DNA of 64,000 bases from Escherichia coli O127:H6 str. E2348/69 (lineage in GTDB: Bacteria > Pseudomonadota > Gammaproteobacteria > Enterobacterales > Enterobacteriaceae): the NCBI RefSeq assembly GCF_000026545.1, contig NC_011601.1; one strand, written 5' to 3'. Positions 58,201-60,706 of the stretch are shown one piece after another (positions within the stretch are counted from its first letter, which is position 1; each line of letters starts with the position of its first letter). Made by a program: the position numbers.

Positions 58201-60706
58201 CGCCATAATGCGCAGCAGGGTGGACTTACCCGCGCCGTTCAGACCCAGGACACCAATTTTTGCCCCAGGGAAGAAACTCAGAGAGATGTTTTTCAAAATA
58301 TGACGTTTCGGCGGAACAACTTTGCCGACACGATGCATGGTATAAACGAATTGAGCCACGTTGGACTTCGCCTCTATGTTTATCGTGATGATGAGTTTTC
58401 AAAGGCGAAGTGTAGCCTTTTTCCCCGCCTAATCCCAGTTGGTCGATCACCTTCGCAGTATACTCGTCATACTTCAAGTTGCATGTGCTGCGCTTACGCT
58501 CGCTCACCCCAGTCACTTACTTCTGTAAGCTCCAGGGGACTCACTCACTTATCGCCTTCCTGCAACTCGAATTATTTAGAGTATAAAAGTAAAAAAGTGT
58601 CCGTAACGTGGCGTAAACGGCAATGACTGGTTAGCATAAATCTATTACGCGGCATGACACTGCATTGATGTATTTACACTTAGAGGATGCGCTTGTGGAA
58701 AAAGCCAAACACGTTACCTGGCGGTTGTTGGCTGCCGGTGTCTGTCTGCTGACGGTCAGCAGCGTGGCGCGAGCCGACTCACTGGATGAGCAGCGTAGCC
58801 GTTACGCGCAAATTAAGCAGGCCTGGGATAATCGACAAATGGATGTGGTCGAACAAATGATGCCTGGACTGAAAGATTACCCACTTTATCCCTACCTGGA
58901 ATACCGCCAGCTCACTGATGACCTGATGAATCAACCGGCGGTGACGGTCACTAACTTTGTTCGCGCTAACCCCACGCTTCCTCCCGCTCGCACGCTGCAA
59001 TCTCGTTTCGTCAATGAACTGGCGCGGCGTGAAGACTGGCGTGGCTTGTTAGCCTTTAGCCCGGAAAAACCCGGAACTACCGAAGCGCAATGTAATTACT
59101 ACTATGCGAAATGGAACACCGGGCAGAGTGAAGAAGCCTGGCAAGGGGCGAAAGAGCTGTGGCTAACCGGCAAGAGCCAGCCTAACGCCTGTGACAAGTT
59201 ATTTAGCGTCTGGCGTGCGTCAGGTAAACAAGATCCGCTGGCGTATTTAGAGCGTATCCGTCTGGCGATGAAAGCGGGTAACACCGGCCTGGTAACAGTG
59301 CTGGCAGGGCAGATGCCTGCCGATTACCAGACTATCGCTTCGGCAATCATTTCACTGGCGAACAATCCTAATACGGTACTGACCTTCGCGCGTACAACCG
59401 GCGCGACCGATTTTACCCGTCAAATGGCGGCGGTGGCGTTTGCCATTGTGGCGCGGCAGGATGCTGAAAATGCACGGCTGATGATCCCGTCACTTGCTCA
59501 GGCACAGCAGCTTAATGAAGATCAGATTCAGGAGCTGCGCGATATCGTCGCCTGGCGTTTGATGGGCAACGATGTCACCGACGAGCAGGCGAAATGGCGC
59601 GATGACGCGATTATGCGCTCGCAATCTACTTCGCTTATTGAACGCCGTGTGCGAATGGCGCTTGGCACCGGCGATCGTCGCGGCCTGAATACCTGGCTGG
59701 CGCGTCTGCCTATGGAAGCGAAAGAGAAAGATGAATGGCGTTACTGGCAGGCGGATTTACTGCTGGAACGCGGACGTGAAGCTGAAGCAAAAGAGATTTT
59801 GCATCAACTCATGCAACAGCGTGGTTTCTACCCGATGGTTGCTGCACAACGCATCGGCGAAGAGTATGAGCTGAAGATTGATAAAGCGCCGCAGAATGTT
59901 GACAGCGCCCTGACTCAGGGGCCGGAGATGGCGCGCGTGCGCGAGTTGATGTACTGGAATCTCGATAACACCGCGCGTAGCGAGTGGGCCAATCTGGTGA
60001 AGAGCAAGTCAAAAACAGAGCAGGCTCAACTGGCTCGGTATGCTTTCAATAACCAATGGTGGGATCTTAGCGTTCAGGCAACGATCGCCGGGAAGCTGTG
60101 GGATCATCTGGAAGAGCGATTCCCGCTGGCCTACAAAGATCTTTTCAAACGCTACACCAGTGGTAAGGAGATCCCGCAAAGCTATGCGATGGCGATTGCC
60201 CGTCAGGAGAGTGCCTGGAATCCGAAAGTGAAATCACCGGTAGGGGCCAGCGGCCTGATGCAGATTATGCCTGGTACCGCGACCCATACGGTGAAGATGT
60301 TCTCTATTCCCGGTTATAGCAGCCCTGGGCAATTGCTGGATCCGGAAACGAACATCAACATTGGCACCAGTTACCTGCAATATGTTTATCAGCAGTTTGG
60401 CAATAATCGTATTTTCTCCTCAGCAGCTTATAACGCCGGACCAGGGCGGGTGCGAACTTGGCTTGGCAACAGCGCAGGGCGTATCGACGCAGTGGCATTT
60501 GTCGAGAGTATTCCATTCTCCGAGACGCGCGGTTATGTGAAAAACGTGCTGGCTTATGACGCTTACTACCGCTATTTCATGGGGGATAAACCGACGTTGA
60601 TGAGCGCCACGGAATGGGGACGTCGTTACTGATCCACACGTTTATGATATGCTATCGTACTCTTTAGCGAGTACAACCGGGGGAGGCGTTTTGCTTCCCC
60701 CGCTAA

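What the first reader, a model, noticed from the sequence alone, without database searches (positions are those of the whole stretch)
58440..58560. ERIC element between ettA and slt
Both characteristic ERIC end motifs are present. ERIC copies are mobile between strains and can affect expression of flanking genes.
Basis: partly seen in the sequence, partly recalled or inferred. Interest (0 to 1): 0.15.

Follow-up and report, generated by a model that had tools for sequence, protein, structure and literature searches.

The report
ERIC repeat inserted between ettA and slt
This is an ordinary 127-bp ERIC repeat (a small non-coding mobile element of enteric bacteria) sitting between the divergent genes ettA and slt of E. 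coli E2348/69; only about 2% of sequenced E. coli carry it at this spot, and there is no sign that it does anything unusual.

Summary
The finding is real and correctly identified, but its coordinates are shifted.

**Identity.** It aligns without gaps to the published E. coli ERIC consensus (107/127) and to a Salmonella ERIC (113/127). Shuffled controls reach at most 77/127. The ERIC2 primer site matches exactly. It has 25-nt terminal inverted repeats and folds into the family's long hairpin.

**Insertion.** Strains without the element show a single TA at the site. The element is therefore a 125-bp insertion with a TA target duplication, as expected of ERIC/MITE elements.

**Distribution.** The window is E. 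coli E2348/69. Only 125 of 5,426 complete E. coli genomes have the site filled. E. albertii, Salmonella, Citrobacter werkmanii, Klebsiella and Enterobacter are empty, so the insertion arose within E. coli.

**Spread.** It occurs on three flank haplotypes, each of which also exists empty. The copies differ by 0-2 nt, which is best explained by one insertion spread by recombination.

**Position.** It lies in the least conserved stretch between the two divergent promoter regions, about 57 bp upstream of the predicted start of ettA's σS-type promoter. It is probably a tolerated passenger.

Known kind, low interest.

The parts
58459..58585 (-). Complete ERIC (IRU/RU-1) element, 127 bp including the flanking TA dinucleotides. 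The strand given is the orientation of the Wilson & Sharp consensus, which is also ettA's sense strand.
   Evidence: Gapless 107/127 identity to the E. coli RU-1 consensus and 113/127 to SeRU-1 (consensus from PMC2759123 Table 1a). Exactly 125 bp are absent from empty alleles.
58459..58460 (.). Left copy of the duplicated TA target
   Evidence: Empty alleles read GCAG-TA-AAAG. The filled allele reads GCAG-TA-[123 bp]-TA-AAAG.
58584..58585 (.). Right copy of the duplicated TA target
58459..58483 (.). Left terminal inverted repeat (TATACTCGTCATACTTCAAGTTGCA)
   Evidence: Inverted repeat I1, 25 nt, 80% complementary.
58561..58585 (.).
58501..58522 (-). Central core, exact ERIC2 primer site (AAGTAAGTGACTGGGGTGAGCG)
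   Evidence: The primer sequence is printed in 233 papers.
58523..58544 (+). Central core, ERIC1R primer site with 3 mismatches. It includes 58534 A, which is T in every other filled allele I aligned (five strains) and in the consensus.
58408..58416 (-). Context, not part of the element: predicted σS-type extended -10 of ettA (GCTACACTT), invariant across Enterobacteriaceae
   Evidence: The sequence matches 9 of 11 positions of KCTAYRCTTAA (consensus quoted in PMC5650638). The ettA promoter is annotated as RpoS-dependent, and 105 bp upstream of the ORF sufficed for complementation (PMC11282234). Conservation is shown. The start site itself is inferred.
58586..58602 (+). Context: conserved A-rich block (AAAAGTAAAAAAGTGTC) directly right of the insertion. 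It is possibly an UP-like element of the slt promoter.
   Evidence: Conservation 0.8-0.9 across 45 species. The function is inferred only.

Best explanation
The feature is one copy of the ERIC family. ERIC is a 127-bp, non-coding, imperfectly palindromic miniature inverted-repeat element (MITE) of enterobacteria. This copy inserted at a TA dinucleotide 100 bp upstream of the ettA start codon and 110 bp upstream of the slt start codon, and duplicated that TA.

The insertion happened within E. coli, because outgroups are empty. It most likely happened once, probably on the flank haplotype carried by E. coli C. It was then carried onto other backgrounds, including E2348/69, by homologous recombination.

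It sits in the least conserved stretch of the intergenic region, between the conserved promoter blocks of the two divergently transcribed genes. That is about 57 bp upstream of the predicted transcription start of ettA's σS-type promoter, and directly upstream of a conserved A-rich block on the slt side. It is therefore probably not part of either main mRNA and is a tolerated, near-neutral passenger.

Shown: family identity, boundaries, the TA duplication, the polymorphism, the empty state of outgroups and the hairpin potential. Inferred: a single origin followed by recombination, the promoter positions, and the lack of effect on expression.
For: **Identity.**. In a 14-sequence ERIC alignment the consensus hairpin has 39 pairs, 21 of which show compensatory changes.

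**Folding.** The ettA-sense (- strand) RNA folds at -49.5 kcal/mol (z = -6.0). The slt-sense (+ strand) RNA folds at -34.3 kcal/mol (z = -3.8).

**Insertion and TA duplication.**

**Frequency.** 125 of 5,426 complete E. coli genomes are filled. An E. coli strain in the GTDB set (L029) is also filled.

**Outgroups.** E. albertii, two Salmonella enterica subspecies (arizonae and diarizonae), C. werkmanii, K. oxytoca and E. cloacae are empty at this site.

**Haplotypes.** Three flank haplotypes each occur filled and empty, while the ERIC copies differ by only 0-2 nt.

**No source copy.** No E. coli genome holds a full-length copy 95% or more identical anywhere else. The closest paralogues are 94.5% (preT-yeiS) and 92% (ybhI-ybhJ) identical. 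This argues against repeated fresh insertions from a resident master copy.

**Position.** The TA target falls at the end of the least conserved stretch in 45 enterobacterial species. The ettA promoter is annotated as RpoS-dependent, and 105 bp upstream of the ORF complemented a deletion (PMC11282234). A σS-type -10 sequence, GCTACACTT, lies at 58408-58416.

**Family properties from the literature.** TA termini, TA duplications and strain-to-strain variation are reported in PMC2759123, PMC10969869 and PMC2229807.
Against: No transcription data for E2348/69 were available, so the claim that the element lies outside both mRNAs rests on predicted promoters and on one complementation construct made in K-12.

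On one haplotype the nearest flank difference (58452) is only 7 bp from the element. A recombination origin therefore needs a breakpoint at the very edge of the insertion, unless the site was hit more than once or the element can excise precisely.

Only 10 alleles were examined base by base.

Both ERIC ends carry weak outward-facing promoter-like motifs: ATGCAA-N16-TATACT towards ettA and CTGCAA-N16-TATAAA towards slt. Both fall below the scan's threshold, but some effect on expression cannot be excluded.
Confidence: 0.8

Rival explanations
1. The site is a target hot spot or the element excises precisely. On this reading the ERIC inserted independently two or three times at the same TA, or was lost precisely several times. 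That would mean ERIC is still mobile in E. coli.
For: Filled and empty alleles exist on each of three flank haplotypes, and one distinguishing SNP lies only 7 bp from the element. Empty sites are exact single-TA sites with no footprint. The ettA-slt spacer has been hit by ERIC at two other TA sites in Kluyvera and Citrobacter.
Against: Independent insertions would need the same master copy each time. No full-length copy 95% or more identical exists elsewhere in 5,426 genomes. An old insertion followed by repeated excision would predict ERIC copies as diverged as their flanks, yet they differ by 0-2 nt. The region is visibly a recombination mosaic. Heterology borders are also natural end points for recombination tracts, which is my inference.
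Confidence: 0.12
2. The element acts as a strain-specific regulatory insertion. It would change ettA and/or slt expression in one of three ways: by displacing upstream promoter DNA, by supplying a weak outward promoter at its ends, or, if transcribed in the ettA sense, by forming a stable hairpin that alters mRNA stability as described for Yersinia ERICs.
For: The element begins about 57 bp upstream of the predicted ettA start and abuts the conserved A-rich block on the slt side. Outward-facing -35/-10-like motifs lie at both junctions, as read directly from the sequence. The ettA-sense RNA hairpin is strong. In Kluyvera and Citrobacter, ERICs in the same orientation sit about 20-33 nt from the ettA start codon, which leaves no room for a promoter between element and gene, so I infer they are co-transcribed. 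ERIC effects on mRNA stability in Yersinia are reported in the literature.
Against: The promoter scan found no site at its threshold. The conserved core promoter blocks of both genes are left intact. The low frequency (2.3%) gives no sign of selection for the insertion. No expression data were available.
Confidence: 0.15
3. The element is ancestral sequence deleted in most E. coli, rather than an insertion.
For: Presence/absence data alone are compatible with either direction.
Against: All outgroup species examined are empty at this site and align straight across it. The extra DNA is a complete repeat-family member bounded by a duplicated TA.
Confidence: 0.02
4. The element is an independent small-RNA gene related to Rfam V_AS5 or isrH.
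For: There is a full-length but weak match to V_AS5 (34.2 bits, E = 5e-6) and a partial match to isrH.
Against: Both matches are far below the families' gathering scores (96 and 45 bits). No promoter or terminator was found. The resemblance is what an ERIC-like palindrome embedded in those models would give, which is my inference.
Confidence: 0.03

Closest known systems
ERIC / IRU / RU-1 (enterobacterial repetitive intergenic consensus; Sharples & Lloyd 1990, Hulton et al. 1991, Wilson & Sharp 2006)
   Same: 127-bp length. 84% gapless identity to the E. coli consensus. Terminal inverted repeats. Central core with the ERIC1R and ERIC2 sites. TA ends and TA target duplication. Intergenic position. 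Long hairpin with compensatory changes. Several copies per genome.
   Different: Nothing that bears on membership. It is somewhat closer to the Salmonella SeRU-1 variant (89%) than to the E. coli consensus (84%). It lies between divergent promoters rather than clearly inside a transcription unit. It is present at this site in only 2.3% of complete E. coli genomes.
E. coli paralogous ERIC copies at preT-yeiS and ybhI-ybhJ
   Same: Full-length gapless matches, 94.5% and 92.1% identical.
   Different: Different loci. They differ by 7-10 nt, so neither is an evident recent source copy.
Bacterial MITEs in general (Correia/NEMIS, RUP, YPAL)
   Same: Small, non-coding, with terminal inverted repeats and a TA duplication, and inferred to depend on a transposase supplied in trans.
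   Different: A different sequence family. No IHF site or strong promoter of the Correia type is seen, and no partner transposase is known for ERIC.
Rfam RF02818 V_AS5 (Vibrio antisense RNA AS5)
   Same: The match covers the whole model (positions 1-129) and has the same long-hairpin architecture.
   Different: The score is 34 bits against a gathering score of 96, so it is not a member. The likeness probably reflects an ERIC-like repeat in Vibrio.

Membership tests
ERIC / IRU / RU-1 | Sequence similarity to the 127-bp consensus over its full length | tested here: met
   107/127 gapless identity to the published E. coli consensus and 113/127 to SeRU-1. Shuffles reach at most 77.
ERIC / IRU / RU-1 | Conserved central inverted repeat (the basis of primers ERIC1R and ERIC2) | tested here: met
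   ERIC2 is exact at 58501-58522. ERIC1R has 3 mismatches at 58523-58544.
ERIC / IRU / RU-1 | Terminal inverted repeats and an overall imperfect palindrome that folds into a long stem-loop | tested here: met
   25-nt arms, 80% complementary. Fold z-scores are -6.0 and -3.8. The consensus hairpin has compensatory changes at 21 of 39 pairs.
ERIC / IRU / RU-1 | TA at both termini and TA target-site duplication | tested here: met
   Filled versus empty alleles read GCAG-TA-[123 bp]-TA-AAAG versus GCAG-TA-AAAG. The property is described in PMC2759123.
ERIC / IRU / RU-1 | Intergenic, multi-copy, dispersed in enterobacterial genomes | tested here: met
   It lies between ettA and slt. There is a median of 5 megablast-detectable copies per E. 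coli genome. Copies were also found in Citrobacter, Kluyvera, Enterobacter, Buttiauxella and Cedecea loci.
ERIC / IRU / RU-1 | Located within a transcribed region and co-transcribed with a neighbouring gene (a frequent but not universal property) | tested here: inconclusive
   Predicted core promoters of both genes lie between the element and the genes. No transcript data were available.
MITE (non-autonomous transposable element) | Small size, terminal inverted repeats, target-site duplication, no transposase gene | tested here: met
   127 bp, with terminal repeats and a TA duplication. The only ORFs that overlap it are mechanical ones running into the flanks.
MITE (non-autonomous transposable element) | Mobilisation by a transposase supplied in trans | not testable with these tools
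   No transposase is known for ERIC (PMC2759123). Mobility here is inferred only from the polymorphism.
Rfam RF02818 V_AS5 | Score at or above the family's gathering threshold (96 bits) | tested here: not met
   34.2 bits.

The most novel reading that the evidence does not exclude
The same TA between ettA and slt was filled or emptied more than once in recent E. coli history. If so, this polymorphic site would be evidence that ERIC, whose transposase is unknown, is still mobile. It would also offer a natural filled/empty pair for finding the mobilising enzyme and for testing whether the insertion retunes σS-dependent ettA expression.
Probability: 0.12. Interest if true: 0.45.

Novelty: already known. 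Interest (0 to 1): 0.12.

Why it matters
It matters little beyond correct annotation. RefSeq annotates nothing at this position, so labelling 58459-58585 as an ERIC repeat prevents it being mistaken for a regulatory RNA or a small gene.

The modest added value is at the population level. This is a clean, low-frequency (2.3%) filled/empty ERIC site with a known target sequence, lying next to the σS-controlled gene for the translation factor EttA. It could serve as a lineage marker. It could also serve as a natural test case for whether ERIC insertions near promoters have any effect, and for how such elements spread, by transposition or by recombination.

Tried and rejected
- **Rfam search.** It gave only sub-threshold matches (V_AS5, isrH, and chance hits to ArcZ and NEAT1). 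The small-RNA reading was rejected.
- **Promoter and terminator scan.** It found no σ70-type site in 58300-58760. The only terminator-like site is inside slt, on the antisense strand.
- **Papers not held.** Wilson & Sharp 2006, De Gregorio et al. 2005 and Thomason et al. 2015 were not in the library. I could not check whether this site is among the 14 non-K-12 ERIC sites they report, read the orientation rules first-hand, or get measured start sites.
- **Loss by slippage between the 6-bp direct repeats AGTATA (58457-62 and 58580-85).** Rejected. That would leave GCAGTATAAAAG, whereas empty sites read GCAGTAAAAG.
- **The 4-bp-shorter empty allele of B2 strain O18 as an excision footprint.** Rejected, because E. 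albertii has the identical sequence.
- **A σ54-like reading of CTGGCTGGGATTAGGC upstream of ettA.** Rejected, because the -12 GC is lost in a common haplotype. The one ChIP-mapped σ54 site that PMC4591121 lists for ettA is classed as intragenic.
- **The excess of 133 records with an ERIC match of 95% or better over 125 carriers.** I attribute this to short partial matches on plasmid records such as H130, not to extra full-length copies. I did not list these records.
- **Plasmid search.** It gave no copy closer than 94.5%. The top hits are chromosome-sized records.

Full report
**What is there**

The window matches the chromosome of E. coli E2348/69 (EPEC O127:H6) at 100% identity. The energy-dependent translational throttle gene ettA lies on the minus strand at 56692-58359, with a GTG start. 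The murein transglycosylase gene slt/sltY lies on the plus strand at 58695-60632. The two genes diverge and are separated by 335 bp.

Inside this spacer, the inverted-repeat search finds 25-nt arms at 58459-58483 and 58561-58585. The 127 bp from 58459 to 58585 align without a single gap to two published sequences. One is the 127-nt E. coli ERIC/RU-1 consensus (107/127 identical). The other is the Salmonella copy SeRU-1 (113/127 identical). Both are printed in Delihas 2007, PMC2759123, Table 1a.

Five hundred shuffles of the element reach a mean of 64 and a maximum of 77 identities. The ERIC2 primer sequence, confirmed in 233 papers, matches exactly at 58501-58522, and no shuffle of the window gives a match. 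ERIC1R matches with three mismatches at 58523-58544.

The coordinates are off, however. The interval 58440-58560 starts 19 nt too early and ends 25 nt too early, so it cuts off the right terminal repeat.

**Insertion anatomy**

I aligned the spacer with strains that lack the element: a K-12-like strain, O157:H7, H9Ecoli, 118UI and O18. Exactly 125 bp are absent from them. Empty sites read GCAG-TA-AAAG. The filled site reads GCAG-TA-[123 bp]-TA-AAAG.

This is the TA target duplication described for ERIC and related bacterial MITEs (PMC2759123; PMC2229807). A 6-bp direct repeat, AGTATA, also occurs at both ends. Slippage between those repeats would leave two extra bases, and no empty allele shows that.

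**Structure**

As RNA, the ettA-sense (minus) strand folds into one long hairpin of -49.5 kcal/mol (z = -6.0 against shuffles). The slt-sense strand folds at -34.3 kcal/mol (z = -3.8).

I built an alignment of 14 ERIC sequences: this copy, two E. coli paralogues, nine copies from other genera found in the fetched loci, and the two published sequences. Its consensus hairpin has 39 pairs, and 21 of them show at least one compensatory double change. This is the family's known palindromic architecture. It does not show whether the constraint acts on DNA or on RNA.

Rfam gives only sub-threshold matches: V_AS5 at 34 bits against a gathering score of 96, and isrH at 14-18 bits against 45.

**Distribution in E. 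coli**

Of 5,426 complete E. coli genomes, 5,425 match the flanks, but only 125 (2.3%) have the filled site. Carriers include E. coli C, WG5, PCN033 and APEC O2-211. They come from humans, pigs, poultry, dogs, a monkey, a crow and water.

Twelve genomes are identical to the window across the 251-bp region I queried, the element plus about 60 bp of flank on each side (58400-58650). In all five other filled alleles I aligned (four strains, L029), position 58534 is T, as in the consensus. The A in the window is therefore a minority variant.

No genome holds a full-length copy 95% or more identical at any other locus. The nearest paralogues are those between preT and yeiS (94.5%) and between ybhI and ybhJ (92.1%). 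Plasmid records add nothing closer.

**Polarity**

I used the single genome-collection scan on a degenerate pattern for the EttA N-terminus. This retrieved the orthologous upstream region from 120 species.

E. albertii, Salmonella enterica subsp. arizonae and diarizonae, Citrobacter werkmanii, Klebsiella oxytoca, Enterobacter cloacae and others align straight across the E. coli target and are empty. The element is therefore an insertion that arose within E. coli, not ancestral DNA lost elsewhere. An E. coli strain in that collection (L029) carries it at 99.2% identity.

**How it spread**

In ten alleles compared base by base, the left flank falls into three haplotypes, defined by positions 58419-58428, 58439-58440 and 58452. 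Each haplotype occurs both filled and empty:

| Haplotype | Filled | Empty |
|---|---|---|
| 1 | E2348/69, GF4-3, PE164 | H9Ecoli |
| 2 | TUM13936 | K-12-like, O157 |
| 3 | E. coli C | 118UI |

The ERIC copies differ from each other by only 0-2 nt. Judging from the identity classes, most carriers have the E. coli C type of flank. This is a rough reading of the ranked lists, not a count.

The wider flanks are mosaic. The first 250 bp of slt in E2348/69 resemble the B2 strain O18, whereas its spacer resembles non-B2 strains.

The most economical reading is one insertion followed by transfer through homologous recombination. The 125-bp heterology would favour tract ends at its border, which is my inference. 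Repeated insertion would need a master copy that is nowhere to be found. An old insertion with repeated precise loss would predict more divergence among the copies. Neither alternative is excluded, and together I give them about 0.12.

**Position relative to the promoters**

Ousalem et al. 2024 (PMC11282234) state that the ettA promoter is annotated as RpoS-dependent. They also complemented a deletion with the ORF plus 105 bp upstream.

On the ettA strand, the sequence GCTACACTT (58416 to 58408) matches 9 of 11 positions of the σS extended -10 consensus KCTAYRCTTAA (quoted in PMC5650638). It is invariant in 45 enterobacterial species. A start site near 58402 would put the left end of the ERIC at about -57.

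A conservation profile of the empty spacer shows the TA target at the end of the least conserved stretch (K-12 spacer positions 82-101). That stretch lies between the conserved ettA-side blocks and a conserved A-rich block, AAAAGTAAAAAAGTGTCC, on the slt side.

The element therefore sits where an insertion would do least harm, and probably outside both main transcripts. This is inference, because no measured 5' ends were available to me.

Both ends of the element carry weak outward-facing promoter-like motifs: ATGCAA-N16-TATACT towards ettA and CTGCAA-N16-TATAAA towards slt. They fall below the scan's threshold. I list a regulatory effect as a rival at about 0.15.

**Comparison with what is known**

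Every defining feature of ERIC that could be tested is met:
- length;
- consensus similarity;
- central core;
- terminal repeats;
- hairpin;
- TA ends and TA duplication;
- intergenic, multi-copy distribution.

Co-transcription is undecided for this copy, and the mobilising enzyme is unknown for the whole family.

Variation of ERIC sites among E. coli strains is already documented. Fourteen extra sites in non-K-12 strains are attributed to Wilson & Sharp 2006 in PMC10969869. Orientation-dependent effects on mRNA stability through an RNase E site are documented in Yersinia. I could not read Wilson & Sharp 2006, so I cannot say whether this site is on their list.

**Verdict**

This is a correctly identified, ordinary ERIC element with shifted coordinates. 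It is a known kind of element and of low interest (0.12). The small additions are:
- the exact boundaries and target;
- the 2.3% frequency;
- the derived state of the insertion;
- the haplotype pattern;
- its position between two divergent promoters, next to a σS-dependent one.

Noticed in passing
L081, L092, L030, L064, L058, L129, L126 (about 20 nt upstream of the ettA start codon); L082, L076 (about 33 nt upstream): Kluyvera ascorbata, several Citrobacter species and Enterobacter sp. JUb54 carry an ERIC at two other TA sites in the ettA-slt spacer. These lie only 20-33 nt from the ettA start codon, downstream of the conserved σS-type -10 block, so the ERIC must be part of the ettA 5' leader there. 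All are in the same orientation relative to ettA as the E. coli copy. The ettA-slt spacer has therefore been colonised by ERIC at least three separate times.
   Followed up: partly
L064 (C. braakii), L076 and L082 (C. amalonaticus group), upstream of ettA: These ERIC copies are interrupted by internal insertions of roughly 70-155 bp of GC-rich palindromic sequence. The ERIC matches are split into two blocks.
   Followed up: no
window 58365-58373 and 58403-58411: A perfect 9-bp inverted repeat (ACTTCGCCT, 29 nt, AGGCGAAGT) links the ettA Shine-Dalgarno region with the predicted σS -10 and start region. Both arms are highly conserved across Enterobacteriaceae. In an RNA that started upstream of the normal start site, it would pair with the ribosome-binding site. 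Whether the pairing itself matters is unknown. In Pseudescherichia vulneris one pair is kept only on the opposite strand.
   Followed up: partly
window 55940-56636: A RelE/ParE-family toxin gene and a NadS-family gene sit between nadR and the 3' end of ettA (RefSeq annotation).
   Followed up: no
window 58453-58458 (aligned position in L004 and L015): The B2 strain O18 and E. albertii share an empty allele 4 bp shorter directly left of the TA target (CACCCC-GTAAAAG instead of CACCCTCGCAGTAAAAG). The shared state argues for an old indel or an imported allele, not an ERIC excision footprint.
   Followed up: partly
window 58418-58429: A 12-bp patch (TTTTTCCCCGCC, TGTTTCCTTATC or TGTTTCCCTGTC) is far more variable among E. 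coli strains than its surroundings. It falls in what would be the spacer between the -35 and -10 regions of the predicted ettA promoter.
   Followed up: no
window 58459-58585, minus strand: Rfam family V_AS5 (a Vibrio antisense RNA) matches the ERIC over its whole model length at a low score. This suggests that the Rfam family is itself built on an ERIC-like Vibrio repeat.
   Followed up: no
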